The position numbers and the translations under genes are program-made. Below, one piece after another: positions 17,684 through 64,000 of a stretch of 64,000 nt of DNA (positions are counted from its first letter, which is position 1; every line of letters begins with the position of its first letter). This DNA comes from Trypanosoma brucei (taxonomy: Eukaryota): assembly GCA_000002445.1 (NCBI GenBank), contig CH464491.1, positions 3,872,001-3,936,000 of the forward strand, in the 5' to 3' direction. The notes beneath the pieces were generated by a model, which ran no database searches, had not been told where the DNA came from, and saw nothing but the letters and a program-made list of their open reading frames with translations.

Positions 17684-18568
17684 CTACAGGTTCACAATAC
17701 CGTTTAACTTATGGGCGTTGCGGCAGTGGGTTTCTTCACAACTTTTCATATATGCCTCAAACTGGTGACGAGCTTCAGCGGACAGTGACTTCTTTTTCAT
17801 CTCCCTTTCTCCGTTGTTGAGCTTTAAAAAGTATCCTGTGTAAAGCTCCACAAAATCGTATGGAAAGCCGAGCTCTTCCTCATCGGTTTGTCCATCCCAC
17901 AAATCAGCCGAGGGAGCGGCTTGGAGAGTATTTTCTGGTACACCAAGCTCACGCGCGACCTTAAAGACTTCACTTTTGTGCAGGTCTGATATGAGTTGCA
18001 CATCCACAACACCATCACCCGCTTTGCAAAAGTAACCAAGGTAGCCATCCTCGTCCATGTTGCCTGTGCCCATTACAATGGTCGGTGTTCCACTCTGGCT
18101 ACATAGTTGAGCTACATAATACCCGACAGGGGCACGCATGTAGCTGCGCAACTGTCCCCTCGCAAAGTCCTTGCCGTCAATGCCAACAGCGGCTTCAACA
18201 CTCAGCGACAACTGCCTATGAATATCGGTTTGGTCCACTACAACCTCCTCCGCACCGGCAGCACGAATGTTCTCACGACCACGTTCAAGTGCCCACGCGC
18301 TACTGCATATCGGTTGGCAGATGCCAACATTTCTCACGATCGGACTACCTTCCATGCGCTGGGCTCGCGAGCACAGCGACAACACAACGGCAGAATCCAC
18401 ACCACCAGAAACATTTGTTACACAACCTCGTAGCTTATTGTTCCGCATGTATTCGTTCAGTTTGGTGCATTTTTCTTCAATCCATGCAATAGGGTTGAAT
18501 GCGCGATGCCTTCGGTATTCCTCCAACCACTCACGTAACTCAGCATGAAGAATGGGCTCCTTCGGCAT
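17684..18568 (-). CDS. nadE: NH3-dependent NAD+ synthetase (NadE-type, single domain)
   Basis: 294 aa. PP-loop 'NVSGGVDSAVVLSLC' (SGGxDS), 'GTGNMDEDGYLGYFCKAGDG' (cf. E. coli NadE '[20 protein letters not shown]') and 'APSADLWDGQTDEEELGFPYDFVELY' (cf. '[29 protein letters not shown]'). There is no glutaminase/nitrilase domain. Confidence 0.88.
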   Translation of the reverse strand: MPKEPILHAELREWLEEYRRHRAFNPIAWIEEKCTKLNEYMRNNKLRGCVTNVSGGVDSAVVLSLCSRAQRMEGSPIVRNVGICQPICSSAWALERGRENIRAAGAEEVVVDQTDIHRQLSLSVEAAVGIDGKDFARGQLRSYMRAPVGYYVAQLCSQSGTPTIVMGTGNMDEDGYLGYFCKAGDGVVDVQLISDLHKSEVFKVARELGVPENTLQAAPSADLWDGQTDEEELGFPYDFVELYTGYFLKLNNGEREMKKKSLSAEARHQFEAYMKSCEETHCRNAHKLNGIVNL

Positions 18569-19685
18569 TGCGTGGCGATATGATACTTCACACCTCTCTT
18601 CGTTTAACAGTTATTTGTTGGTTTTGCTTGTGCTACTGAATCTCCGATGGAGATGCTATATGCTGTTGCACAGAGTTAACTGCGAATTACTCACTTGATA
18701 TAATAATTATCTTTAAAACGCTCTAGTGAGACCAAAATCGGAATAAATGGTTCGAAAAAGAGGGAAACATGTTACCACGAGCAAATGAAATGATGACAAA
18801 ACAGTCCTGAGGTAGTGGAGAACAGGGATTAGTACTGAGAGCAGGAAGAAGGAACAAAGTAACAATAAACAGGGGGAAAAGAAGAAAAATCGCGTGATAA
18901 GAACCAAACACAAGGCCCCATGTAATACATCTACTATATGAACTCAGTGCCGGGTACCCAAGACGAGAACACCACCAATGAACGTTCACGAATATATTTA
19001 CCCATGTGTGTATTTGTGTGTGTGCCCAGTTGTAAACGTAACGCTTCTCACTTCTTCCTTTCTACCGCAGTATCACCTTCTTAACCTCTTCTCCGCTCGC
19101 ACGTATACAAGCGAACCTGCCCAACTCTTGTCAGTGTATAAATACATTGATAGTGGTTTACATTTTCTACCCTCAGCAACAAATAAACATAACAGCCAGA
19201 GTAATAATCAATGAAGACCAGCGAAGGGGGAAGTAAAGTGGAGCAACAGAAACACGAAAGGGGAAATGAGTGCCCCCTGCAGTCCACTTAACAACAATGT
19301 TGACTTCCTTTCTTCGCTGCACGCCTACATACATCACACACACAGGCAAACAACTTTCCCTCTACTATTTGCCCAACACAATTATTGATCTCTACACCCT
19401 CCCTTTGGGAATTGCAAACAGAAAAAAATCGCCTCAGCGGGACTAATGGCCAACGACAAACGTCGTGTTAACGGCATGCCAGTAGCGGTAAACAAAATAA
19501 AAGGCGTCTGTTTCACGTGGCCACCCGCCGACTGGCGTAAGACGGGGGGCCGCGGTTAGTGCACACTGTTTGCTGTTGTCTCCCACACGCATGATATTAC
19601 TCGAGCTGTGTGAAAAAAAAAAGAAGACATCGTCCCTCCGCGAGGGAAATTTCTTTCACGAGGGGATGTAACCCGACAACCATGG

Positions 19686-20801
19686 CTACTCCTGAGCCTC
19701 CGCATTTTCTTCAGCAGGAGCATCACCCGCCGCCTCCTCTGGAGCATCTTGTGCAACCTCCTCCTGTGGTTCCTCAACGGGCTGTTCGGTAGCTTCCTCA
19801 GCAGGTTGCTCAGCCGGTTCCTCAACTGGTTGCGAAACTTCCTCAGCAGGTTGCTCCACCGGGTACGATGTTTCCTCCGCGAGTTCCTCAGTTTGCTGTG
19901 GTTCCTCTGCAGGCACCTCAGCCGGTTGTGAAGCTTCTTCCAGAGGTTCCTCAACGGGCTGTTCGGTAGCTTCCTCCACGGGTTGCTCAGCCGGCTCCTC
20001 AACTGGTTGCGAAACCTCCTCAGCAGGTTGCTCAGCCGGCTCCTCAGCTGGTTGCGAAACCTCCTCAGCAGGTTGCTCCACCGGGTACGATGTTTCCTCC
20101 GCGAGTTCCTCAGTTTGCTGTGGTTCCTCTGCAGGCACCTCAGCCGGTTGTGAAGCTTCCTCCGCAGGTTGCTCGGTTTCCTCCTCAGGTTTATCAGCTG
20201 GTTCTGGGGCCTGCTCCGCGGGTTGCTCAACTGGGTATGGATCCTCCTCTTTCTTGGGGCTCTTGAGGGCCTCTTGAATTGGTTTAGTAGAGTAGATTGA
20301 CGGCGTTATATCACATGTTGCACCCACTGGAGGAGCAGCGCTTCGAGAACCACTGACGCCAGTATAACCGATAGCCTTCACTTCGTCCGCACCAGTGCCC
20401 TTGGCTCCTTCTGTCCCTCTCTTCGTTCGGAAGCTGCTTATCAGACCTTGTTTGTAACTTGCCGCCTCTGACATGTCCCGCGTGCGCTGATCCCGCTTGT
20501 ACTCCTCCATAAACCTCTCTTGCCATTGAATTCCCTCCATGACAAGGTCCCGACGCTCAGTGTTGGATCTACGGCGCTCCTCAATGTACGCACGGAGCAC
20601 CTCCTCCTTCACCACTTCTTCCGACTCCGTTTCCTTCAGGTCGGACATGTTCACGAGCTCTGCGTGTCGCACCCACGTATCATCATTGATACAGCTTAAG
20701 TAGTCGCGGATAACCACATCATCGGGAACTAACGATTTGTGTGTCTTGTCCTCATCCACATAGAGCTGAGCAAGAGCAGTAGATGTGGGGTCAGCAGACA
20801 T
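19686..20801 (-). CDS. acidic tandem-repeat protein (EQPAEE/PVEEP repeats), function unknown
   Basis: 371 aa with a non-repetitive N-terminal ~190 aa, followed by Glu/Pro/Ala/Gln-rich 18-aa-type repeats ('EQPAEEVSQPVEEPAEQP', 'EVPAEEPQQTEELAEETSYPV'). The DNA shows a higher-order duplication of about 231 bp (19861-19938 is near-identical to 20092-20169). Confidence 0.6.
   Translation of the reverse strand: MSADPTSTALAQLYVDEDKTHKSLVPDDVVIRDYLSCINDDTWVRHAELVNMSDLKETESEEVVKEEVLRAYIEERRRSNTERRDLVMEGIQWQERFMEEYKRDQRTRDMSEAASYKQGLISSFRTKRGTEGAKGTGADEVKAIGYTGVSGSRSAAPPVGATCDITPSIYSTKPIQEALKSPKKEEDPYPVEQPAEQAPEPADKPEEETEQPAEEASQPAEVPAEEPQQTEELAEETSYPVEQPAEEVSQPAEEPAEQPAEEVSQPVEEPAEQPVEEATEQPVEEPLEEASQPAEVPAEEPQQTEELAEETSYPVEQPAEEVSQPVEEPAEQPAEEATEQPVEEPQEEVAQDAPEEAAGDAPAEENAEAQE
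19750..20230. repeat. coding tandem repeat array (54-bp subunits, about 177/231-bp higher-order units)
   Basis: Near-identical blocks recur at offsets of about 177 and 231 bp, e.g. 'gggtacgatgtttcctccgcgagttcctcagtttgctgtggttcctctgcaggcacctcagccggttgtgaagcttc' at 19861 and 20092. Confidence 0.85.
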
Positions 20802-29351: not shown

Positions 29352-32300
29352 TCACCCTGAGCACTCATCGACATCGACAGAAACTGATGAAGCGCTATAC
29401 CTTCCGGAGGTGCGGGAAATCGTGTCTGCATCGCACGCCGACTGTGTTCTAGTATCGTCTCCATATGTTGCTAGCAACTGCCCACTGTTATTTGTATCTG
29501 CTTGTTCCCCCTCGTCATCGGCTTTTGGTGGGTCAACTGAGGTATTGCCCACGTAGCAGCAGTAGTTCTCAATGGGAAGCTGGTGAAGTTGGTGTGAGGG
29601 GCCAACCGCATGGGGTAGGGTCTCGTACACAAATGCACCAAAGCGATGCGAGCGCGTCCCCAACCCTGATTCGGACTCCTGGTAACAATCAGATGATTGC
29701 TCAGAGAACTGCCCGGCGGTGGGACATGCTTCTTCCGTTTGCTCGTCGGGCTCTTGACGGTCAACATTTTCGCAGTCCAAATAACTCCTCTCTTCGCCAG
29801 CTGATTTTCCATCAGTATTTACCATCCCTTCCCCATCAGTTCCCTTAGTTCTGTTGCTGGTGCTGTGGTACCGGCAGGCGGTCGCGTTCTCACTCCCAAG
29901 GGACACAGCAGAGAGTTGATGCAAATTGACGGCTGATGACCCCAGAGACGTGGAGAAGGAATCTACGAGATACTTCACAATGTCGGTGATGACTTGTTCG
30001 TTGTCGATCAAGGAAACTAGCGGTAAAGGGTGGCGTCGACTATCATAGACCAAGTTTTTCTGCTTCGCGGGTCGGCAAGCCTTAAGGCATTCCGCTTTGG
30101 CCAATACTTCCTCGGCTATAACGGAAACGAGTAACCTGTCGACTAAGGGAACCTCATTGACATCTACTAAGGCATTCTGCATGGTGACATCGTCAAGGGC
30201 GGTTTCCAAATCGGGAAGAAATTTCAAGAGGAGATCCGTAATGTACGTATGACCACGCTCATGGTACCATAGAAGCGCTGAAACAAACGAAAGAAGTTTA
30301 CTCCACATCGGGAAGGGTGTGTGGTGCGACCGGAACAGTGACATAAACGGGAGTACAACGAGAATCTCAAAGTATTGTTGGAAAGAGAGAACGTTGTCCT
30401 CACACAAACAGCACCTATCATCTGCCGTATCCGTGCAACTGTGAAGGGAACAAACGTCAATGTCGTCCAGTCCCGGGCCAGAAAACGATCTTCCGGGATG
30501 AACACCATTCTGCTTACTCAAATCCACACGGCTAAGAAGCATTTCAACCGAGGGAACGTTGAATACCTCCGAGCACACTCGAAACAGTTCATCCAGCACA
30601 TATTTCATCCGCAACGACAAATTCTTCAGCGAACTACCAGAACCACCCGAAAACACCACTAACGACTGCTTCCACGTCTCGCCAAACAGTCCTAGACAAT
30701 CCCAGAGGGAATACACTGGTGGGCCACCAAGGTCGGCGTTGCTCCTCACAAGGTTCGTCGTGCTGTTCTCTCTGCTTTTCGATTCTTCTACGTGCAGTGT
30801 CTTGAGGACCTCCGGACTGAACCCAGCCAAATTAAGGGACACCCAGTCACATAGGAGAACCAGCTCGGAGAAGGCCAGCAGTGCCGCACTACCACTATTA
30901 TCCTGACTGAATTCACTTAAATACTTCAGCACTACAGCGGTGTTGTGCTTATAGTTACGCCCTATGGTACTGCGCAGTTCATCGTTATCCCTCTTTTGCT
31001 TTGCCGTAAGCCTTCCCTGCTGGAGGAGCACAAGTTGCACAGCTGCGCACTCCGGTAGGACGGTTAATTGGAAGGTACCCGACGAGCAGGGAGGAGGTTT
31101 GGGTATTACGTTAAGAAATTTCAAGCATCCATGTCTGTGGAAAACCGTCAGCAAGTCACATACCGAGGACCAAGCATCAGAAGCGAACAAGAGTGCGAAA
31201 CCAGCCCAGAAACATGAAACAAGGTAACTGCTTGGGAACGAGCTATTGCTTCCAAACGGGGTCGCAATTGCCAAAACCTCAGGCTTCGTTCTGTCCATCC
31301 CCTGCTTCTGAGATTCCGAGGAATAGAGAATCTCATGGATCGTTATGTCGCGCAGCAGGCACGCCAGCGTTGTTATGACAGGAATGCACGGGACATACCT
31401 TTTGTTCGTCACTATATGCTGAGGATTAGCACCCGACTGGACGGTGCTGTTCGCCCCCACACGATCCGACAAAACTGCGAGTAGGTGACGCAACAGGTTC
31501 GCTTCTGCCAGCTGCATTGACATCTTTTCCACCCACAGATGTCGGCTGCCGCAGCCGACAAGAAGGTTCTCGGTTGAGAGGGAGAGACACGTGGAGATGC
31601 TCCGAATTACCTTCATGCAGAGAAGCGAAATATGTGAATGAACTTGGTGCCTCCGTTGCCACGCCCTGTTTTCCATCATAAAACCCTGTGTCAGCCATTT
31701 CGATGAATCATGGAGGCAACGCTGAAGAAACCGTCGTCCGAACACATTTCGACCGTGCCCTGTAATTCCCATGAAAAGCTCAGCGAAAACAATATCCACG
31801 GTGGAAGAGGGGGAATGAGCATGGTTCTCATTTAATTTTGAATCGCCAAAGACCAGCGACTCTTCCAGTAGCAACGTATCCCAACATTCCCATATCTGCT
31901 GCATTTCATTCCCTTTCTGCGCCATCATCAAATCACGATGTCTTAACCTTGTGAGAGTGAGTTCCAACCAGTACTTTGTAGAATTCGGAGCACGGTACGT
32001 CGGGTCCGTTACGGTCCCCTTCAGCAACTTCTCCAACACCTTAAAAGCAAGGTCCACAACATAAAAGCGCGAGCCTGGCTCGTCCCGCTCATCTGACCGG
32101 TGCAACACACCGGAACTGAGGTGTGCGAGCAACATACATGAAAAATGGATGTGTAAAGTAAGATAATCCCTGTGCGCGACGCGATATATATCCTTCTTCC
32201 TCTTCAAGTGGTCCCGCCGCTTCCTTTCTTCGGACTGTTTGTCATCCTTTTCAACAGTAATTGTACGCTCAGCAGCAAAAGTTGTGTGAGTACCGCCATG

Positions 32301-35300
32301 AACAACTACTGTGCCGTTACTTTCAGTACTGCAGTGCTCTACAACCGATCCGTAGTCAATCACGCTCTTCTCATCAGACGCTCGGAAAGCACCCGCCTCC
32401 TCTGATTCTGAAGAGGAAAAATTACTTCCGTCGTTCTGAACGAGCGTATTATCGTCACTTTCAGAGCTTGCCTCGCTCTGTTGCACCACCGATCCCGTTT
32501 CCTGTTCATCCTCAACACAACTTCCTTCATCAGCATCAGTTGCATCGCGCTTCGCGAGGCTAATGATCACGTCACGTGATGGATAAGACGAGGATACGAC
32601 ATGCCGTTCATTCTTTACTTCGCAAGACCCTGCAACACTCGTAAATTCTCCAAGGGCAGAGAGGTCACGATAAATTTCCATCCATAGGCGTTGGCCATGC
32701 TCCTGCAGTCGCTCAATTGACCAAGATGCGAAAAATAGAACACTTACGAGTGGTTTCACAAAACTTAGCTCCAAAGAGGTCTCCACATCGTCTGGGTAAA
32801 GGGGCATCGGGGAAAGACATGTACGACCTGAACATCTCTCTCTCCGCACCGTACTAAAAGCACGGCCTCTTACTGCTTCTTGTGATAGCCTCTGAAGTCC
32901 GTGCCAGATGTTTTCCTCGGCAATCCATGCCATCTTACCTTTACCAGCAACATTAACGTTGGGACAGCGGCCGATTGACATTTCGAAATTTATGCAATTC
33001 ACCGACGACATCGCTGTGTAACTGGGTGCGATTCTATCATCTTTTGAAAACTCTGAAGCGATGTCGTTCAGCGCAGTGTCGTACTTTGTGGAACTACTTG
33101 GCGCACTTGACGCGTGCCTTTGGTTCAGAAGCCTCATTTGATATATTGAAAACAAAAAGAAATTGTAGTATGTGCTCTGTATCTGGGAGTCCAGGCTTAC
33201 ACGACCCTCTCCCACCCCCTGTGACAACTTTTCGCTGGAAATAAATCTATCAATGTAGTAGGCAATAGTGTTCTTATCAGCAATATCTATCATAGATGTC
33301 ACGAGGACTGCAATGAAGCGATCCCTTCCGGCACCTTCATATGCAATCCAACCACCCCATACTTCAGCAATGTAATTATCCGAAATTGAGTTTCGACATG
33401 CCTGAGTAACCTTTAACATAGTGCGAAGGCTTTCTTCTGTAGCTTCCACTTGTCGCACAAACAGAGACAGTAGCCTGAGTGCTATTTTTACTGAAACAGG
33501 GTGTATTGGAGCTGTAGATGAAACCGTGGCCCCTGCGGAAAGGATGATAGAGCTCGCCATTGTAAAGAAATTTTGCAAAAGCTGACCGGATACGTCCACG
33601 TTATCCCTTTGCATTCGTGTTGCGTTGAGAAGGAGGTAAAACCAACGAGCAAACCCATCCTCGCCACTTGTATCATTTATAAGCAGTTCTCCACAGAGCA
33701 ACTGCAGTAGCGCCTTCGCCTTGGAACGAACGATCGGATCAAAAACAGGTCCAACGGAAGACTCTTCGTACGAATACATCAATGCGTAAAAGATTAAGGA
33801 GCTGTTGGTTACTATCATTTTGTTCACGCCGTCGCAGCTTGTGCCGCTTCCCAGCAAACTTGCACGTGCGTCTGAGCTAGCATCAGAACGCGTTTGGTAG
33901 GATATACGCTTTACACAAACCCTCGGTGACGTCACCGTCCGCTCTAGACGACCCCACAGAACTGAAAAGGCAGTTACCATTATGGAGAACAGTGACCTGT
34001 GAACTGGGCTATCAACTGGCTCTTGGTGAAGCACACGACGCATTGATTCCCATGATGAAGCGTCAGCGACTAGAAGCGTCACCGCGATATTGAAGATACA
34101 CGGCATGTCACCCTCGAGGTTGGTGTTATTTGGCGGTAGAGCGTGCTGCAACCACTTCAGGAAATTCTCTGAAAAACTGTTTGCAATACTGGCTACGGTC
34201 GCACTCGGAGAGCCCCCTGTAAGTTGCTCCATTGATAATATAACCGTTTGCAAAGCAAGAACACCCTTCTCCATGGCAACTAGAACATTCGGATGCAACT
34301 GCGCCTCGGGGTTGTCATCGACTTGCAAAGGGTTTATGTCGAGAAACCACTGAACCTGATGTGTCAGGCTGTAAAATACTTTGAGAAGCAATATGCTCTT
34401 TAGTTGTGTTTCCAGGTACTTCGTTTCCTTTGAAAATATCAATGTCACCAAGTCGTAAAACAAACCACGAAGGAAAATAATGGTCATCGCTCCCCCAACT
34501 GTGTTACGGCTGAAAGAAGCCCTCAACTCATCACCGTTGTTCGTAGCTGGAAGACTCCGTGACAGCGCAAGCCAAGAGCGCGCGGCCACTCCATTTCCCT
34601 CGTCGAGTATTTGAAACAGAGTTTCTGCCTGAAGCTCTTGTTGTTCTTCAATGTTCTCACCAGCTTCAAACAGGCGTGTGTTACCAAGCAACAGAAAATC
34701 AATAGTCCCAACAATAATCTTCTCCATTTGCGTACGCTGTATGGCTAATTTCTCCTGCTCACGGCTTGGAATAATGGGAGGTTTTACAAAGAAGCGGCGA
34801 CCCACAACCACAAGGGTTGGCAAGAAAACAGATAAACACGCCCAGGCCTTATGTTCCGCATCCTTCGCTGAGTGGCTACAGTTGCATTTGTACAGGATAT
34901 CTCGAAGGCTCTTGATGAGGGGATGGTTACTGTCCATCACACCAGGAAAGGTAACGAGTGGCGTGTCCCGTGTCCATGTGTATTCAAGTGGTCCAAGATG
35001 AAGAAACTGCAAAACATCAAAAAAGGAGAACGTGGTAGTAGAACTCACTCCATACGTGATCAAGGGCACTGTGATGTCATCCATCAACTTGTTGTATTCC
35101 GCATATCGACTAATAATTTGCCACGTTACTTCTTTGTAGTCATCAAAATTACCCACAATCGTAGTATTTCCGCCATGCCGGTGCCCGGGTCGATTACGCT
35201 CGCCTCCAGCTGTCACGCGATTTGCATCCGGTAGGCTTTTGGTGTTATCGACAGATAATATCAAGAACCTCAAAACATAGCAAGACCTCCACAGAGGTAG

Positions 35301-38300
35301 TTTTCCCTCCATGTGGAGTTTCAAACCACGTTGGACTATTTCCCCTGCAAGGGCACACGTCACGCGCACAAGCGCGGAGCCAGGGTAGTAACAGTGGGTT
35401 GCGAGAACAAGTGCTAACGCAGACACGAATATGAGGAGATATGCCTCACTATCCGCCATCATGCAGCGGTCGCCAAGTGGAGTTGAGACCAGCGGGCTCC
35501 CCGAGTTGTTCACACGAATGTGCATTTCAACATCCGCAGGCGTCCCGCGTGAGGATTCTACTACACCTATATGCGTCCGGAATGACCTCTCTTCCACATA
35601 TCCCATTCCCTTTTGGTGCCTTTCAGACTTAGGATGCCAGCTGGTACTTGCGGGAAATGGGATGTAAGACTCCTCCAGTGATAAGTACATATCTTCGAAG
35701 CTTTCACCAACCTCCTTTAGAACCTCAGAAGCCGTGAATCGTTGATTCTGTGCTCCTTCGTGGCCATGAGTTCCCAACCTCATCCCAGCAGAAGTCCCGG
35801 GAGCATTGTGAGTCCTTCCAACAGCATCCTCATTCGTTGAGAGTTGGTCCCCACAATGGACGCGCTGCAGAGACAGTAGAGAAGCTAATATGTCCAACTG
35901 CAGGAGCGCCTGCTGCCGCACAGTGCGGCGAGTGTGACCAAGTAGAATGATAGCTAACCCTTCAAGTGCGTCCATGAGCGTTGTGCCTTCAAGTGCCCTC
36001 ACTACATACCAACCCTCTGATTCCGGCGAAGAAGAGCATGCTTCCAGTTGGTCAACATTTATGTTCATGGGTATTAACAGCCAATTCCATTTGTCTCTGC
36101 GTGAACCTACAGCACAGTTAAATGCCCCCACCTCTGCCCCCGCGGAAAAAAAATCCCATCGACGACCCAACTGAGGTGAATCCTTGACATCATCATGAGC
36201 CGTTCGCACGTACATGTCGTTGAGGGTTATGTACTCCATTTCGTCTCTAAGCTCTAGCAGGTGTGAAGTAAGATACTTCACCAACTCTTCCACACGCCCA
36301 TTATCTTCACTAACAAGTACGTCGATAACACTCTCAGCCAGCCTGTATATCGCGAAGGCACAACTACAAAGGCTTCGCCTCCCGTAACTACTCCCGTTGC
36401 TATTGTTTCCGCTCTTCAGGTAAAGCGGCAACACCACACGAGCAACGGCCTCCTTGAGTTGTGAGTCTGCGCCCACAAGAAGTTTCGGTAGCGTGAGGCT
36501 TCTATCGAGCATAGCGCATGCAGAAGTGAAAAAACCAGCGACAATAAGAACACTAACAAGTTGAAGCTTGAATTCGCTTGTACCGTTCATCGAACTCTCC
36601 TGCGCAGCATCATTTAGGTACTCAAAGGCTGCCTTACGTATATCGTTAATAGCGGTTCGTATGTTGTTCGTAAACTTTATAAAAGTAAGCAAATTTTTCA
36701 AGTGACCTTCGTGCCAAAGTGCAGTGGGTCCTTCGACCGTAGTGACGACATAGTTATAGCACGAACCGCGGTAAAATATCATTCCCATAATCTTACTTCG
36801 AATCTGTGTTTTTGTATCGGTAAAATCGTCATACAGCTCGTCAACAGTGTTGTGATACCCACAATTTAAATTACATGCAAGTACAGCGTTCTTAGTGCCA
36901 TTTTTCTTCTCAGACATCTTTGAGTCCACTGAAAAGTACTTCAACTCACAGAGCGCAGAGAGCGCGCGCATGGCAATGAGTTGGCCGTAGCAGATGGTCG
37001 GACCCTTTACACTTTTTACAGACCCTCTTGTTTTGTTCCTGCAATCGAGCAACCTTAACAGCCAACCTGTTGCTTTGAGGTAGAAGTGTTCCTGCTGCAG
37101 GCAAAACAATAACAAATCTGATGCCGCCATAATGCACGCCGGAGCACCAGTGCCTTCCCGCCACTTTTCGTTGTGTAGGTCCTTCACCAACATCTTTTCC
37201 GTATAGTAAAGAAAGCACTCGGTGCAGCTCTTTACATCTTCAGCCAATGCCGTCGCGTTTCTTAGGTGCAGATCAACAAGTAGCCCACCAACGTGTAACG
37301 TGGAGTAAAGAATGGAGCTTCTGTCTATATTATCAACCGAAGAGAACAAATTTCTCAATGTCTTCAAAAAGCTCGGCATTTTTTTCAAAAGAGATGCTGG
37401 GGACACACAACCCAGCATCGCGGCAACGGAAATAGCATACCACATGGAATATTTGCACTTTCGCCAGGAGTCTAATTCGCCTAGCAGCATCTCGGATATC
37501 GGTTGCCCCGAAGAACCCACCAACTGATCATGTATTTTGGTATTGCCGTTGTCTGGTACAGGTTGCGGAAACAAACAACCCAAAAGTAGCAATGTGACGA
37601 CACCACGTAGTCGCTTCTCCTTCTTCGCATGTGGCAGTATCTTCTTCACAAGAACGAGTAATACTACAAGTGAATCCACGCTACCTGGACCATTGTGAAA
37701 AATGTGGCACATATATAGTGCGTCGAAGAAAACAGTAACAAACATACTTTCCACGGCTTTTGTTCCTTTTGAGGCCTCAACCGACTTCAGGGATGAGCAT
37801 TTGCTGAATAATTCCGTCGCTAAGTCTTGAAATCGAGTAGATAGAAACGATGGCAGCTTTCCACTCAAAATGATTGGGAGACCCCCCACCTGTGCGTCAT
37901 TAGTCAAAGAAGTTCTACCACCCCTAGTTTTTTCAGACCAGTTGCGGTGAAAGTGCCAAAGGCATTCCAAGTCCTGCACAAGTACCTGACGGTTTGCTTG
38001 AGGAATACCCGACCTCACCCTACTTACAATATCATCCCACCTCACACTTTCCCAAGTTTCGCACGAGAGACGTGCTTCCTTCAGCAACGAAACACAAAGA
38101 CGCACCGAACTCATACAGTGCCCTCTAACAGCTTGCTCATCAATTTGAGATAAAAGGTCGTAGCAAGAGCTAGAGAGCAAGGAATAGTACACACGTGACG
38201 GTGACACAATGCTGCAACCTGCACTCTGTAGTACCGCATGGTAATGGGCCTCCAATTTCACTGCAAGATCGTGTGTCAGGAAAAACACCGGTGGGAGAAG

Positions 38301-39251
38301 TGACAACTGTGAACCGTAATCATTTTTATTGGCGCCGGAAGCATCCGCGTCGCTGCACAAAAGTCGACATGAATAAAGCAATCCACCTGCACACACGGCA
38401 GAAGCATTGTGTGCGTCAAGTACGACAGAGACACTCAACGCCCACACCAACTCAACCACACTGGCCAATAAATGAGCCTCACTCCAATCCCATTGTGCAG
38501 ATGCACCACTTGTCACGTGCGAGTCTACTGCAACCATGGACCTGGTTAGAGATCCTGGTGGGCATGTTTTCCTTAATCGTGTACAGAGTTTCGAGATTGA
38601 GTCCTTGATAGCCGCCACGACGTTTTCATGCAACACGTCTAGGAGGGAAACCGGGATGTTTCCCAATGTCCCCAGTGCCTCGTTATTGGGGACAGAAGAA
38701 GAAGGCCCTGTGGTTCCACTCATGCGTTTGAAGTCAAGAATATTGGCCATGAAAGTGTTTCGTACCATCGTGAGCTGCGCTACAACATCACTAGTTGTCA
38801 ATCGCCACCGCATGTGTGTAGAGTCCGCAGATTTTGTTTCTTCTAAAGAGGGAGCACAATATCTCCCCTTCACTATGTGAGTCCACTGAGCCAAATCCTC
38901 TCCAGCCAACCTCGTCAGCTCCGCCATCGCTGTCCCACGCAAGGGCAACCTTGACTCGGTATCATCGCTATCTTTATCAAGTAGGACAGCGTTATTATGG
39001 TTCCCCCTTTTCTTCAGCAGAAATTCGATGAGAGTTTTCTTCTCCCTGGAGTTGGATCTAAACATTTGGTTAATTGAATCATTGATATGAAGTCCATCGA
39101 CACGGACGAGAAATGCATACACAATATTGGCATATGATATACCAAAGTGCTCCGGATGACTCATATGACCCTCAAAACGACAGCTAATATAGAATGAAAG
39201 GGTACCACACAATTGCCTCCTCTCCTCTTTCAAACGTCCCTTCTTCCTCAC
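29352..39251 (-). CDS. giant hypothetical protein (3299 aa), largely alpha-helical/repeat-like with no catalytic motif recognised
   Basis: Uninterrupted 9.9-kb minus-strand ORF. No P-loop, kinase, HECT, BEACH or Sec7 signatures were seen by eye. The C-terminal ~250 aa are acidic/Ser-rich and low-complexity. Confidence 0.7.
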   Translation of the reverse strand: MRKKGRLKEERRQLCGTLSFYISCRFEGHMSHPEHFGISYANIVYAFLVRVDGLHINDSINQMFRSNSREKKTLIEFLLKKRGNHNNAVLLDKDSDDTESRLPLRGTAMAELTRLAGEDLAQWTHIVKGRYCAPSLEETKSADSTHMRWRLTTSDVVAQLTMVRNTFMANILDFKRMSGTTGPSSSVPNNEALGTLGNIPVSLLDVLHENVVAAIKDSISKLCTRLRKTCPPGSLTRSMVAVDSHVTSGASAQWDWSEAHLLASVVELVWALSVSVVLDAHNASAVCAGGLLYSCRLLCSDADASGANKNDYGSQLSLLPPVFFLTHDLAVKLEAHYHAVLQSAGCSIVSPSRVYYSLLSSSCYDLLSQIDEQAVRGHCMSSVRLCVSLLKEARLSCETWESVRWDDIVSRVRSGIPQANRQVLVQDLECLWHFHRNWSEKTRGGRTSLTNDAQVGGLPIILSGKLPSFLSTRFQDLATELFSKCSSLKSVEASKGTKAVESMFVTVFFDALYMCHIFHNGPGSVDSLVVLLVLVKKILPHAKKEKRLRGVVTLLLLGCLFPQPVPDNGNTKIHDQLVGSSGQPISEMLLGELDSWRKCKYSMWYAISVAAMLGCVSPASLLKKMPSFLKTLRNLFSSVDNIDRSSILYSTLHVGGLLVDLHLRNATALAEDVKSCTECFLYYTEKMLVKDLHNEKWREGTGAPACIMAASDLLLFCLQQEHFYLKATGWLLRLLDCRNKTRGSVKSVKGPTICYGQLIAMRALSALCELKYFSVDSKMSEKKNGTKNAVLACNLNCGYHNTVDELYDDFTDTKTQIRSKIMGMIFYRGSCYNYVVTTVEGPTALWHEGHLKNLLTFIKFTNNIRTAINDIRKAAFEYLNDAAQESSMNGTSEFKLQLVSVLIVAGFFTSACAMLDRSLTLPKLLVGADSQLKEAVARVVLPLYLKSGNNSNGSSYGRRSLCSCAFAIYRLAESVIDVLVSEDNGRVEELVKYLTSHLLELRDEMEYITLNDMYVRTAHDDVKDSPQLGRRWDFFSAGAEVGAFNCAVGSRRDKWNWLLIPMNINVDQLEACSSSPESEGWYVVRALEGTTLMDALEGLAIILLGHTRRTVRQQALLQLDILASLLSLQRVHCGDQLSTNEDAVGRTHNAPGTSAGMRLGTHGHEGAQNQRFTASEVLKEVGESFEDMYLSLEESYIPFPASTSWHPKSERHQKGMGYVEERSFRTHIGVVESSRGTPADVEMHIRVNNSGSPLVSTPLGDRCMMADSEAYLLIFVSALALVLATHCYYPGSALVRVTCALAGEIVQRGLKLHMEGKLPLWRSCYVLRFLILSVDNTKSLPDANRVTAGGERNRPGHRHGGNTTIVGNFDDYKEVTWQIISRYAEYNKLMDDITVPLITYGVSSTTTFSFFDVLQFLHLGPLEYTWTRDTPLVTFPGVMDSNHPLIKSLRDILYKCNCSHSAKDAEHKAWACLSVFLPTLVVVGRRFFVKPPIIPSREQEKLAIQRTQMEKIIVGTIDFLLLGNTRLFEAGENIEEQQELQAETLFQILDEGNGVAARSWLALSRSLPATNNGDELRASFSRNTVGGAMTIIFLRGLFYDLVTLIFSKETKYLETQLKSILLLKVFYSLTHQVQWFLDINPLQVDDNPEAQLHPNVLVAMEKGVLALQTVILSMEQLTGGSPSATVASIANSFSENFLKWLQHALPPNNTNLEGDMPCIFNIAVTLLVADASSWESMRRVLHQEPVDSPVHRSLFSIMVTAFSVLWGRLERTVTSPRVCVKRISYQTRSDASSDARASLLGSGTSCDGVNKMIVTNSSLIFYALMYSYEESSVGPVFDPIVRSKAKALLQLLCGELLINDTSGEDGFARWFYLLLNATRMQRDNVDVSGQLLQNFFTMASSIILSAGATVSSTAPIHPVSVKIALRLLSLFVRQVEATEESLRTMLKVTQACRNSISDNYIAEVWGGWIAYEGAGRDRFIAVLVTSMIDIADKNTIAYYIDRFISSEKLSQGVGEGRVSLDSQIQSTYYNFFLFSIYQMRLLNQRHASSAPSSSTKYDTALNDIASEFSKDDRIAPSYTAMSSVNCINFEMSIGRCPNVNVAGKGKMAWIAEENIWHGLQRLSQEAVRGRAFSTVRRERCSGRTCLSPMPLYPDDVETSLELSFVKPLVSVLFFASWSIERLQEHGQRLWMEIYRDLSALGEFTSVAGSCEVKNERHVVSSSYPSRDVIISLAKRDATDADEGSCVEDEQETGSVVQQSEASSESDDNTLVQNDGSNFSSSESEEAGAFRASDEKSVIDYGSVVEHCSTESNGTVVVHGGTHTTFAAERTITVEKDDKQSEERKRRDHLKRKKDIYRVAHRDYLTLHIHFSCMLLAHLSSGVLHRSDERDEPGSRFYVVDLAFKVLEKLLKGTVTDPTYRAPNSTKYWLELTLTRLRHRDLMMAQKGNEMQQIWECWDTLLLEESLVFGDSKLNENHAHSPSSTVDIVFAELFMGITGHGRNVFGRRFLQRCLHDSSKWLTQGFMMENRAWQRRHQVHSHISLLCMKVIRSISTCLSLSTENLLVGCGSRHLWVEKMSMQLAEANLLRHLLAVLSDRVGANSTVQSGANPQHIVTNKRYVPCIPVITTLACLLRDITIHEILYSSESQKQGMDRTKPEVLAIATPFGSNSSFPSSYLVSCFWAGFALLFASDAWSSVCDLLTVFHRHGCLKFLNVIPKPPPCSSGTFQLTVLPECAAVQLVLLQQGRLTAKQKRDNDELRSTIGRNYKHNTAVVLKYLSEFSQDNSGSAALLAFSELVLLCDWVSLNLAGFSPEVLKTLHVEESKSRENSTTNLVRSNADLGGPPVYSLWDCLGLFGETWKQSLVVFSGGSGSSLKNLSLRMKYVLDELFRVCSEVFNVPSVEMLLSRVDLSKQNGVHPGRSFSGPGLDDIDVCSLHSCTDTADDRCCLCEDNVLSFQQYFEILVVLPFMSLFRSHHTPFPMWSKLLSFVSALLWYHERGHTYITDLLLKFLPDLETALDDVTMQNALVDVNEVPLVDRLLVSVIAEEVLAKAECLKACRPAKQKNLVYDSRRHPLPLVSLIDNEQVITDIVKYLVDSFSTSLGSSAVNLHQLSAVSLGSENATACRYHSTSNRTKGTDGEGMVNTDGKSAGEERSYLDCENVDRQEPDEQTEEACPTAGQFSEQSSDCYQESESGLGTRSHRFGAFVYETLPHAVGPSHQLHQLPIENYCCYVGNTSVDPPKADDEGEQADTNNSGQLLATYGDDTRTQSACDADTISRTSGRYSASSVSVDVDECSG

Positions 39252-40126
39252 GGTATATTATTTAAAACCTCTACCTGCTGTTGGTGTCTTTACAATCTTT
39301 CCCCCTCCGTATCGCAACCGGACGGCGGTGAGCGATATCTCCCCCTGCTCACTCTTCACACTTTAACTTCTTCTCACCGAAAATAAGAAAAAAGGAACGA
39401 CGACTCTCCCTGAGAGAAAATTTATATAATATGAGATTCTTTTTCACGGTGAATCGTCTTCCGGCTACTAGCCGTGATGCATGAAACTTACATGCAACGA
39501 ACAAAAATACTTCACCTAACCTAGAGTTCTCTGTTGTCTCAGCCAATTTCCTACCTTTCCGTGGTAGCGCCGTATCACTCCGCTCTATATTTACTTCTTT
39601 ATAGCACTTGATGAAATACTTAACCGACGCTTCCTTTTATTTATCACGTTCGACTTGTTTTCCCCTTCTCTCGTGAGTGCGGAGCCAATGACGAAGATCA
39701 GTTGTTGTTGTTTTTTTTTTTTAATATGCTTTCTCTCGTGAGTTTTCACGCACACTACGTGTAAAAACAAGGAAATTTCTCATAGAAGAACAGATGAAAA
39801 AAAAAAAAGAAACGATAAAATTCGATACGAATATGACAATTAACATTAAAAAAAAAGAAGCAGATGATAATGTTCTCTTTTCACTGGGCAACAGAGATAC
39901 CAAAAAGCAAAAAAATATATACGGAAGAAAAGGCACAATCCACGGGGAAACGACGCAACGACTTGTGAACATAAAAAGAAACATCACACGAAAAATCATT
40001 CGGTCGCTTTCCCCCGATTTAACACCCCTCCTACTCACGCACTAACTCAATTGCACCCAACTAATCCTAAATATTTCATTTTATTGTAACGCATTGCTTA
40101 CATACTCTTCATTCATTTTTTTTTTT

Positions 40127-59810: not shown

Positions 59811-60284
59811 TTACTCTCCACGAGCACGCTTTCCACCTACCTTACTCGATCCGTCACGTTTACCCACAAAATAACCTGCCTCATAACCCGCATTGAAGTA
59901 AGCCACCAACAGCTGGCGGATGTCAGCGGGAAGTCTGTCAAACATACTTTGATGCAAGACTACAGGAGCCACCGACGCATTAATGGGGGCAGCGGTAACA
60001 ATAGCCGAAGCCACCCCCGCCTCCCGCTGCCCAGACTGAAAGGAACGCAACGATGATTTTTGCTCAGACTCTGCCACTTCATCATCTTCCGTAGTGATCA
60101 AGCTTCCGTCTTCCGATACCGTCGATGGTACTGGTGCTTCATCTTCTGCCTTTTCACATTGGTCCTCTTCCAGTTGTGCATTCCACAAACGAATTAGGTC
60201 GGCATCGTCCCACAGACTGTTGTCGCCTGCACCTCGTGTGAACACAATTGTGCTTTCAGTCGACTTATTATTCCGCCGGACCAT
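59811..60284 (-). CDS. SMN: survival-of-motor-neuron (SMN)-like protein
   Basis: 157 aa. N-terminal 'WDDADLIRLWNAQLEE' resembles the SMN Gemin2-binding helix 'WDDTALIKAYDKAV'. C-terminal 'LLVAYFNAGYEAGYFVG' matches the YG-box 'LISWYMSGYHTGYYMG'. Size and layout fit the short kinetoplastid SMN. Confidence 0.7.
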   Translation of the reverse strand: MVRRNNKSTESTIVFTRGAGDNSLWDDADLIRLWNAQLEEDQCEKAEDEAPVPSTVSEDGSLITTEDDEVAESEQKSSLRSFQSGQREAGVASAIVTAAPINASVAPVVLHQSMFDRLPADIRQLLVAYFNAGYEAGYFVGKRDGSSKVGGKRARGE

Positions 60285-60410
60285 AGTCGCCCTCCTCTAA
60301 TCTCCGTCCTCACCACCCACAACTCCTTTCACGTATGCACACCGCTGCCTCTGACCCTTTGCTTAAGAGTCTTGACGATCGAAGGCAATTCGATGCCACT
60401 AATTAAACTG

Positions 60411-60440
60411 CGTTCAGAAAAGGAAAAAAAAATAGTAGTA
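60411..60440 (-). promoter_or_regulatory. polypyrimidine tract (minus strand) upstream of SMN-like gene; candidate trans-splice acceptor
   Basis: + strand 'cagaaaaggaaaaaaaaatagtagtaatcaagaaaaac' is purine-rich, i.e. polyY on the minus strand, about 130-160 nt upstream of the ATG at 60284. Confidence 0.3.
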
Positions 60441-62725: not shown

Positions 62726-64000
62726 CTACCCCATGTCAAGAGTAAACATGAGGGCGGTCAGCCACCGGTCACGTTCTTCTTCAGTTTTGGTAGCAAACAG
62801 AATAGACTGCGAATGCACTGTTGAGAGCACAAATACAAACTTCTTATTGCAATCCACTTTCTCCACGCTGTTTGCCTCTGGGGAATAGAAAATTTTCATC
62901 GGCGAAACTGACTTGATTGTGTCGAGTGGCATCCTTTTACTGCGTGTGTTGCAGTTGGAGGCGCACTTTTCTTTTGCTAGTGTGACAGTTAAGTAACCGT
63001 CAGCCAAAGTGAGATACCGCTCCTTCCAACGTCCGTCAAGCGTTCCCTTAAATACAACCCCTTCCATGTGCCCGGGGATTCCCGACTCAATTTGTTTTTC
63101 AGTTTCCGACATAATCAAATTTTCCCCCTCCACTATGCCTCGCATTACGAGGACCCGCTCCTTTGCGGTGAGGTTGTAGCGGCGGCGATCCCCAATACAA
63201 TCCACAGGATTGGAAATGTAGTTCCTTTCAACTTCATCATCGGCGGCAATCATATCATACACTTGCTTTTTAAACAGGTGTAAATAGTGCTGCATCAGGG
63301 GTGTTTTCAGTAGTTGAGAAGCGCTTGGTCGTCTATCGGGATCTAACTGCAGTATATACTCAAGAAACTCTCGCATCTCAAGACTTATGCAAGGAGGAGA
63401 AGCTTTGCCATCGGTGTTAGCAGCCGAATTATTGGACTCGCCAGATTTTTGAGTTGGTGGAAGCCACATGTCACCCGATAGCACCAGTTCCTTAAGTTTT
63501 GCTGGTGAGTGTGCTTCAAAAGGGCGGCGCTTTCCTAAAAGTTCACACAACACAATACCAGCAGCCCATATGTCAGCTTTCTTTCCGTACCGCTGACCCT
63601 TTAACATCTCAGGTGAGAGGTAATAACTCGTTCCCAGGAAAGTAACAGCGATGGGGTTACTCACGCTAGTATCGTACTGTTTTGAAAAACCAAAATCACC
63701 CAGCTTCAAGAATCCGCGAGATGTGAGAAAGATGTTAGCCGTCTTAATATCGCGATGAATCATTCGCCGCCGGTGGACGTGGTCAAGACCTAAAAGTAAC
63801 TGAACAAACAACACTCCAGCCTCCCTCTCAGTAGGGAAGCGGTCGCTGGGCATGTGGTGAAGGTTGCGATACAAATCCCCTTTATCCGCGAACTCTGTTA
63901 TAATAACAATTGTTTGAAACTCGTCATCAATGTAGAAGTGCTCGTAATACCGTACAATAGCGAAATGATCAGCATTCGCCAAACACATTATTTCCGTCTG
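62726..64000 (-). CDS. NEK-type Ser/Thr protein kinase with C-terminal PH domain (N-terminus beyond window end)
   Basis: Kinase subdomains 'MIHRDIKTANIFL', 'KLGDFGFSK', 'GTSYYLSPEM' (NEK-like GT[PS]YY[LM]SPE) and 'DIWAAGIVLCELL'. The C-terminal 'VFKGTLDGRWKERYLTLADGYLTVTLAKEK ... ERDRWLTALM' is PH-domain-like. The glycine loop and VAIK lie upstream of position 64000, so the gene is partial. Confidence 0.8.
   Translation of the reverse strand, partial: QTEIMCLANADHFAIVRYYEHFYIDDEFQTIVIITEFADKGDLYRNLHHMPSDRFPTEREAGVLFVQLLLGLDHVHRRRMIHRDIKTANIFLTSRGFLKLGDFGFSKQYDTSVSNPIAVTFLGTSYYLSPEMLKGQRYGKKADIWAAGIVLCELLGKRRPFEAHSPAKLKELVLSGDMWLPPTQKSGESNNSAANTDGKASPPCISLEMREFLEYILQLDPDRRPSASQLLKTPLMQHYLHLFKKQVYDMIAADDEVERNYISNPVDCIGDRRRYNLTAKERVLVMRGIVEGENLIMSETEKQIESGIPGHMEGVVFKGTLDGRWKERYLTLADGYLTVTLAKEKCASNCNTRSKRMPLDTIKSVSPMKIFYSPEANSVEKVDCNKKFVFVLSTVHSQSILFATKTEEERDRWLTALMFTLDMG

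What the first reader, a model, noticed from the sequence alone, without database searches (positions are those of the whole stretch)
17684..18568. Bacterial-type single-domain NH3-dependent NAD+ synthetase (NadE) in a eukaryotic gene array
The 294-aa protein has the PP-loop SGGxDS and aligns along its length with E. coli-type NadE. It lacks the N-terminal nitrilase/glutaminase domain that typifies eukaryotic glutamine-dependent NAD synthetases (~700 aa). A stand-alone ammonia-dependent NadE in a kinetoplastid is a candidate for ancient bacterial horizontal acquisition. It would also be a parasite-specific enzyme architecture. The gene sits in an ordinary polycistron with host-like codon usage, so it looks long-resident.
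Basis: partly seen in the sequence, partly recalled or inferred. Interest (0 to 1): 0.55.

Follow-up and report, generated by a model that had tools for sequence, protein, structure and literature searches.

The report
Trypanosome single-domain NAD synthetase gene
This is the already annotated Trypanosoma brucei NAD+ synthase gene: a short, probably ammonia-using enzyme with no glutaminase domain, from a lineage shared with many other protists and giant viruses, so it is not a kinetoplastid-only bacterial import.

Summary
A 294-aa ORF at 17684-18568, on the minus strand, carries only a NAD_synthase domain (Pfam E 1.8e-36) and the PP-loop SGGVDS. It cannot be extended upstream, and no long ORF in the 64-kb window has a CN-hydrolase domain. 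The window is Trypanosoma brucei. Public records already name this protein "NAD+ synthase". Catalytic residues are conserved, and a confident AlphaFold model matches single-domain NH3-dependent NadE structures. It most likely amidates NaAD with free ammonia, completing the Preiss-Handler salvage route.

The evolutionary reading is only partly right. The protein is not E. coli-type. It falls in a separate NadE lineage (100% bootstrap against canonical NadE). Its closest relatives are orthologues in all three euglenozoan classes, then Blastocystis, Rhizaria, Amoebozoa and an ichthyosporean, then giant viruses (46-52% identity). The nearest prokaryotic and phage branch (about 35-47%) is typically fused or adjacent to 2OG-oxygenase, NMNAT and PRTase genes. 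The gene is long-resident: host-like codon usage, conserved synteny, and a gene tree whose order matches the euglenozoan species tree, though with weak support. A bacterial donor cannot be identified, and the architecture is not parasite-specific. It is an ordinary annotated gene with a modestly interesting phylogeny.

The parts
17684..18568 (-). Complete coding sequence (294 aa plus stop codon) of the single-domain NAD+ synthetase (NadE-type)
   Evidence: ORF. 99% identical (291/294) to a T. brucei equiperdum protein named 'NAD+ synthase'. Same synteny in the assembly record CM010682.1.
17741..18481 (-). PF02540 NAD_synthase domain (residues 30-276), the only domain in the protein
   Evidence: Pfam E 1.8e-36, 126 bits. 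TIGR00552 nadE 121.5 bits. AlphaFold2 model with pLDDT 90 and pTM 0.89. The top 48 Foldseek hits in the PDB are all single-domain NadE.
18392..18409 (-). PP-loop ATP-pyrophosphatase motif S54-G-G-V-D58-S59 (B. subtilis S46-S51; D58 aligns with the Mg-binding D50)
   Evidence: Invariant in all 116 family and canonical sequences aligned, apart from one S-to-A change.
17975..18070 (-). Catalytic core G167-T168...E173...K182...D185...D189...K198 (B. subtilis T157, E162, K170, D173, D177, K186)
   Evidence: Conserved in every eukaryotic member aligned. The alignment was anchored on the B. subtilis NadE sequence, which I verified against PDB 1ee1.
17708..17713 (-). C-terminal H286-K287 pair (B. subtilis H257-K258, NaAD phosphate contacts), followed by the clade-specific ...G-x-V-N-L C-terminus
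   Evidence: Invariant in alignments A1 and A2 and. The residue roles are recalled from the B. subtilis structural literature.
18835..18889 (-). Polypyrimidine tract (18889-18837) and first downstream AG (18836-18835), 266 nt upstream of the ATG: candidate spliced-leader trans-splice acceptor
   Evidence: Pattern scan and sequence. The assignment is an inference from the general rules of trypanosome mRNA processing, with no transcript data.

Best explanation
The ORF is the T. brucei NAD+ synthetase. It is a single-domain N-type ATP pyrophosphatase. It adenylates the nicotinate carboxyl group of deamido-NAD (NaAD) with ATP and Mg2+, then replaces the adenylate with free ammonia to give NAD+ (EC 6.3.1.5). 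With no glutaminase domain, it should use ammonia directly. It supplies the last step of the Preiss-Handler salvage route (nicotinamidase, NaPRT, NMNAT, NADS), the route on which trypanosomatids depend because they cannot make NAD de novo. In evolutionary terms it is a vertically inherited, long-resident nuclear gene present at least since the euglenozoan ancestor. It belongs to a distinct NadE lineage shared with several other protist supergroups and with giant viruses. That lineage's prokaryotic and phage sister branch is linked to NMNAT, PRTase and 2OG-oxygenase genes. Shown here: the domain content, conserved catalytic residues, fold, phylogenetic placement, synteny and host-like composition. 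Inferred: the enzyme activity, ammonia as the nitrogen donor, NaAD as the substrate, and the ultimate origin of the lineage.
For: Domain and family scores. The best sequence matches among solved structures are all NH3-dependent NadE. The PP-loop, D58, E173, R145, T168, K182, D185, K198, S220 and H286-K287 are conserved relative to B. subtilis NadE. A confident model (pLDDT 90) has single-domain NadE as its top 48 PDB matches. There is no CN_hydrolase domain in the ORF, upstream of it or in any long ORF scanned in the window. Pathway need: trypanosomatids require nicotinic acid and have the genes that convert it to NAD, and the entries listed as NAD+ synthase are these 292-293-aa proteins. Leishmania depends on nicotinamidase, and its NMNAT makes NaAD. 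An archaeal single-domain NadE is a strict NH3-dependent NADS with no use of glutamine or NaMN. Rosetta-stone and neighbourhood support: bacterial relatives are fused to an NMNAT domain (PDB E 2.6e-15), and phage-contig relatives sit next to NMNAT-like and PRTase genes. Residency: composition |z| < 1, identical synteny in T. b. equiperdum, and orthologues in Euglena, diplonemids and kinetoplastids that branch in species-tree order.
Against: I found no biochemical or genetic data on any member of this lineage in the searchable literature. Three positions that are invariant in canonical NadE differ across the family: N133 to Q139, R137 to Y143, and T169 to C181. Substrate contacts may therefore differ. 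The best structural hit is the Francisella NMN synthetase. I could not test whether a stand-alone glutaminase partner or a second, two-domain NADS is encoded elsewhere in the T. brucei genome. The phylogeny is neighbour-joining only, and the deep nodes have 20-40% support.
Confidence: 0.8

Rival explanations
1. The enzyme is an NMN synthetase. It would amidate NaMN to NMN, and the dual-specificity NMNAT would then adenylylate NMN, as in Francisella tularensis.
For: Francisella NMN synthetase (3fiu) is the top Foldseek hit and the second-best sequence hit. Leishmania NMNAT accepts both NMN and NaMN.
Against: P. horikoshii, H. pylori and B. subtilis NAD synthetases score essentially the same. 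The residues I recall as contacting the adenylyl half of NaAD (Y40, Y150, I164, D189, H286-K287) are conserved. At the Y32 position, Francisella appears to have Ser when read off the pairwise alignment, whereas the whole trypanosome family keeps Tyr. NaAD is reported to be made in Leishmania. The characterised archaeal single-domain enzyme has no NMN synthetase activity.
Confidence: 0.08
2. The protein is the synthetase subunit of a split glutamine-dependent enzyme. It would work with a separately encoded nitrilase-like glutaminase (types C/R of De Ingeniis et al.).
For: Such split systems exist in some bacteria and archaea. Many database records name these proteins 'glutamine-hydrolysing'.
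Against: No CN_hydrolase gene lies in the 64-kb window or next to the homologues in giant viruses, phage contigs or Blastocystis. The 'glutamine-hydrolysing' names look like automatic EC 6.3.5.1 transfers onto proteins with only PF02540.
Confidence: 0.06
3. The gene was acquired from a bacterium specifically in kinetoplastids.
For: The single-domain form is the prokaryotic architecture. A survey of 16 eukaryotic genomes found only fused forms. The neighbouring pathway enzyme NaPRT is reported as a gammaproteobacterial transfer in trypanosomatids.
Against: Orthologues occur in euglenids, diplonemids and at least four other eukaryotic lineages, one of them an intron-containing nuclear gene in Blastocystis. 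Giant-virus homologues (46-52%) are closer than any prokaryote found (42% or less among species genomes, 47% or less among all representatives). Two systematic transfer surveys do not list it. A much older bacterial origin for the whole eukaryote/virus lineage remains possible but is not resolved.
Confidence: 0.04
4. The lineage has a function outside NAD synthesis, namely amidation of some other carboxylate. The family-specific pocket substitutions and the 2OG-oxygenase partner in bacteria hint at this.
For: The N133Q, R137Y and T169C/G changes fall at positions invariant in canonical NadE. The role of the fused oxygenase is unexplained.
Against: The fusions and gene neighbours are NAD-pathway enzymes: a specifically NMNAT-like domain and PRTases. 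Trypanosomatids need an NADS activity, and the pathway survey lists this protein as the NAD+ synthase step.
Confidence: 0.03

Closest known systems
Single-domain NH3-dependent NAD+ synthetase (NadE, 'type N'): Pyrococcus horikoshii PH0182 (2e18), M. jannaschii MJ1352, B. subtilis NadE (1nsy/1ee1), H. pylori NadE (1xng)
   Same: One PF02540 domain of about 250-290 aa, the PP-loop SGGxDS, the same Mg, ATP and catalytic residues and the same fold (target-normalised TM 0.79-0.84), with no glutaminase domain. This is the presumed mechanism.
   Different: Only 19-27% structural-alignment identity and about 30-35% by sequence. The lineage is separate with 100% bootstrap support. Q, Y and C replace the canonical invariant N133, R137 and T169. 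There is an extra helical C-terminal segment ending in ...HK-x-x-G-x-V-N-L. It fails the full-length equivalog cut-offs (130 against 255; 78.9 against 250).
Francisella tularensis NMN synthetase (FtNadE, 3fiu)
   Same: Best structural match (E 2.4e-16, target-normalised TM 0.88) and second-best sequence match. It is also a compact single-domain NadE.
   Different: FtNadE prefers NaMN and works in a NadM-based pathway. The trypanosome family keeps Tyr at the B. subtilis Y32 position, where Francisella appears to have Ser. The substrate preference of the trypanosome enzyme is untested.
Eukaryotic glutamine-dependent NAD+ synthetase (yeast Qns1, human NADSYN1, 6ofb; 'type F')
   Same: Catalyses the same final step of NAD synthesis, and its C-terminal synthetase domain has the same fold (Foldseek rank 49, query-normalised TM 0.69).
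   Different: The trypanosome protein lacks the roughly 300-aa N-terminal CN_hydrolase glutaminase domain and so any intramolecular ammonia tunnel. Sequence similarity is marginal (E 0.006), and the score against the two-domain equivalog is 55.6 against a cut-off of 479.
NadE genes of giant viruses (Nucleocytoviricota metagenome-assembled genomes), uncharacterised
   Same: Closest relatives outside eukaryotes: 46-52% identity over the full length, the same size and the same ...VNL C-terminus.
   Different: They are encoded in viral genomes next to hallmark genes (intein-bearing RNA polymerase and RNR, aminoacyl-tRNA synthetase, NUDIX, PARG). The direction of exchange with eukaryotes is unresolved.
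Bacterial and phage NadE-like proteins with a 'HKY-x-G-SPAVHLD...PGGW' tail, often fused to 2OG-Fe(II) oxygenase, with or without NMNAT and a PRTase-like part (for example the Nannocystaceae locus L001; P0128, P0133)
   Same: Same NadE sub-lineage (35-47% identity) with the same Q and Y substitutions. The links to the NAD pathway support a shared role.
   Different: They are multi-domain or sit in gene clusters and have Gly in place of Cys181. The T. brucei protein is stand-alone and ends where the tail begins.

Membership tests
NAD synthase / NadE superfamily (Pfam PF02540; TIGR00552 nadE domain) | Profile match above the curated cut-off | tested here: met
   PF02540 at 126 bits against 21; TIGR00552 at 121.5 against 63.65.
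NAD synthase / NadE superfamily (Pfam PF02540; TIGR00552 nadE domain) | PP-loop SGGxDS and the Mg, ATP and catalytic residues (B. subtilis D50, E162, R139, T157, K170, D173, K186, H257-K258) | tested here: met
   S54GGVDS59, D58, E173, R145, T168, K182, D185, K198 and H286-K287 are all present and invariant among the eukaryotic orthologues.
NAD synthase / NadE superfamily (Pfam PF02540; TIGR00552 nadE domain) | NadE fold | tested here: met
   Model with pLDDT 90. The top 48 Foldseek hits in the PDB are all NadE, with target-normalised TM 0.68-0.88.
NAD synthase / NadE superfamily (Pfam PF02540; TIGR00552 nadE domain) | [quoted passage not shown] | not testable with these tools
   Needs an enzyme assay or genetic complementation. 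I found no published assay for this lineage.
Canonical NadE pocket (all 28 prokaryote and phage sequences sampled) | Invariant N133, R137 and T169 (B. subtilis numbering) | tested here: not met
   Q139, Y143 and C181 in T. brucei. The whole lineage has Q and Y, with C in eukaryotes and giant viruses and G in the bacterial forms.
E. coli/Bacillus-type NH3-dependent NadE (NCBIfam NF001979 / PRK00768 equivalog) | Full-length equivalog score above the cut-off | tested here: not met
   78.9 bits against a cut-off of 250. The archaeal-type model PRK13980 also falls short at 130 against 255. The lineage separates from canonical NadE with 100% bootstrap support.
Glutamine-dependent two-domain NAD+ synthetase (type F; Qns1/NADSYN1; NF010588) | N-terminal CN_hydrolase (nitrilase-like) glutaminase domain fused to the synthetase | tested here: not met
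   Pfam finds only PF02540. The frame closes 14 codons upstream of the ATG. No long ORF scanned in the window has a CN_hydrolase domain. The equivalog score is 55.6 against 479.
Split glutamine-dependent NADS (types C/R of De Ingeniis et al. 2012) | A separately encoded NADS-type glutaminase subunit, clustered or remote | tested here: inconclusive
   None is clustered in the 64-kb window. A remote gene elsewhere in the genome could not be searched.
NMN synthetase (FtNadE type) | Preference for NaMN over NaAD | not testable with these tools
   It is the best structural hit, but the specificity determinants were not available because Sorci 2009 is not held.
Bacterium-to-kinetoplastid horizontal transfer | The kinetoplastid sequences nest inside a bacterial clade, apart from other eukaryotes | tested here: not met
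   They nest among other Euglenozoa and protists (eukaryote clade 64%), beside giant viruses. The bacterial tail/fusion clade is separate (95%).

The most novel reading that the evidence does not exclude
The trypanosome enzyme may represent a previously unclassified NadE lineage that giant viruses have moved between distantly related protists. In Euglenozoa it may have replaced the ancestral two-domain glutamine-dependent NAD synthetase. Its bacterial and phage sister branch may be a self-contained NAD-building module of NadE, 2OG-oxygenase, NMNAT and PRTase. If so, 'all eukaryotes use the fused enzyme' is wrong for a sizeable part of protist diversity, and NAD synthesis in these parasites hinges on an ammonia-dependent enzyme with a pocket (Q139, Y143, C181) unlike both the human and the canonical bacterial enzymes.
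Probability: 0.3. Interest if true: 0.5.

Novelty: already known. Interest (0 to 1): 0.3.

Why it matters
Trypanosomatids cannot make NAD de novo. They route nicotinamide and nicotinate through NaAD, so this enzyme is probably the only exit to NAD+. It differs in architecture and in pocket residues from human NADSYN1, which is why such enzymes are considered as drug targets. In evolutionary terms it corrects a textbook generalisation: single-domain, ammonia-type NAD synthetases are not confined to prokaryotes. They occur in Euglenozoa, Blastocystis, Rhizaria, Amoebozoa, an ichthyosporean and giant viruses. The gene itself, however, is an annotated housekeeping gene and needs no new mechanism.

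Tried and rejected
(1) I looked for a nitrilase domain in an adjacent ORF or exon. The stop-to-stop frame, a Pfam scan of 24 other long minus-strand ORFs, and the antisense and upstream small ORFs all came back negative.
(2) Contamination or recent transfer is rejected by host-like GC, GC3 and codon usage, conserved synteny in T. b. equiperdum, and orthologues in every kinetoplastid sampled.
(3) The exact window protein is not on record in the assembly index. It differs at 3 conservative positions from the T. b. equiperdum entry.
(4) Literature. I found no characterisation of a trypanosomatid, Blastocystis or giant-virus NADS. Klein 2013 and Alsmark 2013 do not list it as a transfer. Butenko 2020 does not mention it. 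Sorci 2009, which has the NMN-synthetase determinants, is not held.
(5) Deep branching order among the eukaryote, giant-virus and bacterial tail/fusion groups could not be resolved. Neighbour-joining bootstraps there are only 20-40%, and no maximum-likelihood program was available.
The exhaustive representative search was used to bound the closest non-eukaryotic relatives.
(7) The Cyanophora and Colponema entries were set aside as evidence of wider distribution. They pair with the bodonid Neobodo (75% and nearby) and are probably prey or contaminant sequences.
(8) The PRTase assignment for the C-terminus of the bacterial fusions stays weak (E 0.0065-0.12, below cut-offs).

Full report
**Observation**

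The ORF listing finds an ATG-initiated ORF of 294 aa at 17684-18568 on the minus strand. The plus-strand reading of the same interval is full of stops. The protein carries the PP-loop S54-G-G-V-D-S59.

It matches a single Pfam family, PF02540 NAD_synthase, over residues 30-276 (126 bits against a cut-off of 21, E 1.8e-36). It also matches the NCBIfam nadE domain model TIGR00552 (121.5 bits against 63.65).

Read from stop to stop, the frame gains only 14 codons upstream of the ATG. About 1.1 kb of non-coding DNA follows. It contains a 53-nt polypyrimidine tract (18889-18837) and an AG 266 nt before the ATG, the usual look of a trypanosome trans-splice acceptor (the assignment is an inference).

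I scanned 24 other long minus-strand ORFs in the window. None has a CN_hydrolase domain. The small antisense ORFs match no family. All long ORFs without an overlapping minus-strand ORF lie on the minus strand, so this is one directional array. The gene's GC, GC3 and codon adaptation cannot be told apart from those of its 20 neighbours (z = -0.14, 0.92, 0.73).

One correction is needed (the strand), and one qualification: similarity to E. coli NadE itself is partial and weak (residues 39-243, E 3.7e-10), while the best solved relatives are Pyrococcus horikoshii (3.8e-23) and Francisella (1.9e-21).

**Identity of the locus**

The protein is 291/294 identical to a Trypanosoma brucei equiperdum entry named "NAD+ synthase". 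The gene order Coatomer-epsilon, DNA polymerase subunit B, NAD synthase, then two unannotated genes is the same on that strain's 3.65-Mb chromosome record (compared).

Orthologues of 288-297 aa and 60-77% identity are present in every trypanosomatid sampled and in bodonids. Several UniProt entries from the vitamin-pathway survey of Klein et al. 2013 are these same 292-293-aa proteins, there labelled EC 6.3.5.1. So the gene is already annotated. What was not on record in the literature I could search is its type and its relationships.

**What it most likely does**

I recalled the B. subtilis NadE sequence and verified that it is identical to PDB 1ee1. I then aligned it with 116 family and canonical sequences.

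- The T. brucei protein keeps every residue I know to bind ATP and Mg2+ or to act in catalysis. These are S54/D58/S59 (S46/D50/S51), R145 (R139), T168 (T157), E173 (E162), K182 (K170), D185 (D173), D189 (D177), K198 (K186), S220 (T208) and H286-K287 (H257-K258). The residue roles come from my recollection of the B. subtilis structural papers.
- An AlphaFold2 model built on 36 orthologues is confident (pLDDT 90, pTM 0.89).
- Its top 48 Foldseek matches in the PDB are all single-domain NH3-dependent NadE or NMN synthetase structures (target-normalised TM 0.68-0.88). Human two-domain NADSYN1 appears only at rank 49.
- With no glutaminase domain in the protein or nearby, ammonia is the expected nitrogen donor. 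The one characterised archaeal single-domain enzyme behaves exactly so, with no use of glutamine or NaMN.

Pathway context fits. Trypanosomatids are auxotrophic for nicotinate but carry the genes that convert it to NAD. Leishmania depends on nicotinamidase, and its NMNAT makes NaAD, which must then be amidated.

Independent support comes from relatives. In about 1200-aa bacterial proteins the same NadE-like domain is fused to a domain that specifically matches NMNAT structures (E 2.6e-15). In large phage-type contigs the NadE gene is immediately followed by NMNAT-like, PRTase or 2OG-oxygenase genes.

I therefore put the NH3-dependent NaAD-to-NAD+ assignment at about 0.8. Three caveats apply.

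- Three positions invariant in all 28 canonical NadE sampled differ throughout this lineage: N133 to Q, R137 to Y, and T169 to C or G.
- The top structural hit is the NaMN-preferring Francisella enzyme.
- Nothing has been assayed.

**Where it belongs**

An exhaustive HMMER search of 1.84 billion cluster representatives and two word-indexed searches give a consistent picture.

- The nearest relatives after kinetoplastids are Diplonema and Rhynchopus (diplonemids) and Euglena longa (euglenid).
- Next, at 55-60% identity to T. brucei, come four Blastocystis assemblies, a cercozoan MAG, Euglypha, the foraminiferan Nonionella, the amoebozoan Stygamoeba, the ichthyosporean Amoebidium and MMETSP transcripts.
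- The Blastocystis gene spans 1454 bp for 292 aa and lies among PTPA, TRM10 and eIF3g on a 944-kb contig. It is therefore an intron-containing nuclear gene, not a contaminant.
- At 46-52% identity come full-length homologues in giant-virus MAGs. These sit on contigs with intein-bearing RNR or RNA polymerase Rpb1, Rpb6, an aminoacyl-tRNA synthetase, NUDIX and PARG.
- Only at about 35-47% do bacterial and phage proteins appear. Most of these carry a characteristic "HKY-x-G-SPAVHLD...PGGW" tail or C-terminal fusions. Among the 150 best representatives, 57 are short, 44 have an extension of about 300 aa and 29 have 800-1100 aa.
- The best hit among 185,579 prokaryotic species genomes is a Nannocystaceae MAG at 42%.
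- Ordinary bacterial, archaeal and phage NadE sit at about 30-35%.

In neighbour-joining trees with 100 bootstraps:

- The whole lineage separates from canonical NadE at 100%.
- The bacterial tail/fusion clade has 95% support, a core giant-virus clade 90% and the eukaryote clade 64%.
- Inside the eukaryotes the order Euglena, then diplonemids, then kinetoplastids mirrors the species tree, though with weak support.
- The deep order among eukaryotes, giant viruses and bacteria is unresolved at 20-40%.

The architecture claim is right, and so is the claim of long residency. The kinetoplastid-specific bacterial acquisition and the parasite-specific architecture are not supported. The gene predates kinetoplastids and occurs in free-living relatives and in other supergroups. 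Its closest non-eukaryotic kin are giant viruses.

An ancient prokaryotic origin of the whole lineage is still possible, but neither the donor nor the direction can be read from these data.

The statement in De Ingeniis et al. 2012 that the fused form characterises all eukaryotes rests on 16 genomes, none from these groups. Two transfer surveys that covered trypanosomatids do not list the gene.

I could not test whether T. brucei also encodes a two-domain NADS or a stand-alone glutaminase elsewhere. This is the main gap.

**Verdict**

This is a real, correctly delimited and already annotated housekeeping gene. It works, with high probability, as an ammonia-dependent NAD+ synthetase. Its novelty as an object is nil.

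The modest interest lies in its lineage: a protist and giant-virus NadE clade with its own pocket residues, sister to a bacterial and phage module of NadE, oxygenase, NMNAT and PRTase. A second point of interest is its likely position as the single exit of NAD salvage in trypanosomatids.

Noticed in passing
P0128, P0133, P0151 (representative proteins); L001:3284-7567; L088:4956-6727; L089:4968-7312; L092:5001-9192; L095:4971-7345: The bacterial and phage branch of this NadE lineage forms a recurrent module. Some members are fusions of about 585 aa (NadE plus 2OG-Fe(II) oxygenase/PhyH). Others are about 1190 aa (NadE, 2OG-oxygenase, an NMNAT-like domain with PDB E 2.6e-15, and a weak PRTase-like C-terminus with the motif VLLDDDISTGET). 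The same parts also occur as adjacent separate genes in 130-390-kb viral contigs. The role of the oxygenase is unknown.
   Followed up: partly
L163:8001-9477; L164:1165-6447; L081:4678-8909: In giant-virus contigs the NadE homologue lies next to a NUDIX hydrolase (L163) and within 4 kb of a PARG-like gene (L164). This hints at a viral set of NAD and ADP-ribose metabolism genes.
   Followed up: no
L168:8001-9426 (Zophobas morio scaffold JAVQLY010000131.1; XP_063933329.1): A beetle assembly carries an intron-containing member of the protist clade (294 aa over 1426 bp, 56% identical to T. brucei), alone in a stretch with no other called genes. It could be a transfer into an insect or sequence from a eukaryotic symbiont or contaminant.
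   Followed up: partly
P0069 (EukProt Cyanophora paradoxa) and P0065 (EukProt Colponema vietnamica): Both sequences are 65-67% identical to the T. brucei protein and cluster with the bodonid Neobodo in the tree (75% for Cyanophora plus Neobodo). They are probably bodonid prey or contaminants in those datasets, not genes of the named organisms.
   Followed up: partly
L169:8001-8951 (133-kb JGI metagenome contig; P0348): A NadE 62% identical to T. brucei branches inside Euglenozoa, between Euglena and the diplonemids. It sits in a compact, apparently intron-free contig rich in MORN-repeat and zinc-finger genes. This may be a giant virus that captured the gene from a euglenozoan host.
   Followed up: no
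P0121, P0281: Two eukaryotic members carry 74-80-aa N-terminal extensions (for example MLRSLKVLPSACRLSTLSS...) that look like organelle-targeting peptides. The T. brucei protein has none.
   Followed up: no
P0138, P0163, P0202, P0218: Proteins of 553-633 aa contain two NAD_synthase domains in tandem.
   Followed up: no
Database names (for example P0015, P0050, P0056 and many JGI entries): Many 290-300-aa proteins with only PF02540 are named 'NAD+ synthase (glutamine-hydrolysing)', EC 6.3.5.1. With no glutaminase domain this is probably an annotation carry-over; EC 6.3.1.5 is the better guess.
   Followed up: partly
window 19686-20801 (-), repeats at 19793-20078: The gene upstream of NadE encodes a 371-aa acidic protein with no Pfam match. 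It has imperfect 21-, 24- and 45-nt repeats encoding P-A-E-E/Q-P-V-E-E units. A 224-aa ORF in another frame (19556-20230) overlaps it and is probably a repeat shadow.
   Followed up: partly
window 29355-39257 (-): A 3301-aa ORF with no Pfam domain at E of 0.001 or better, the largest gene in the window.
   Followed up: no
window 60001-64000: GC drops to 0.39-0.41 and AT skew rises to 0.25 between 60 and 62 kb, against about 0.47 and 0.05 elsewhere. No tandem repeats were found there.
   Followed up: partly
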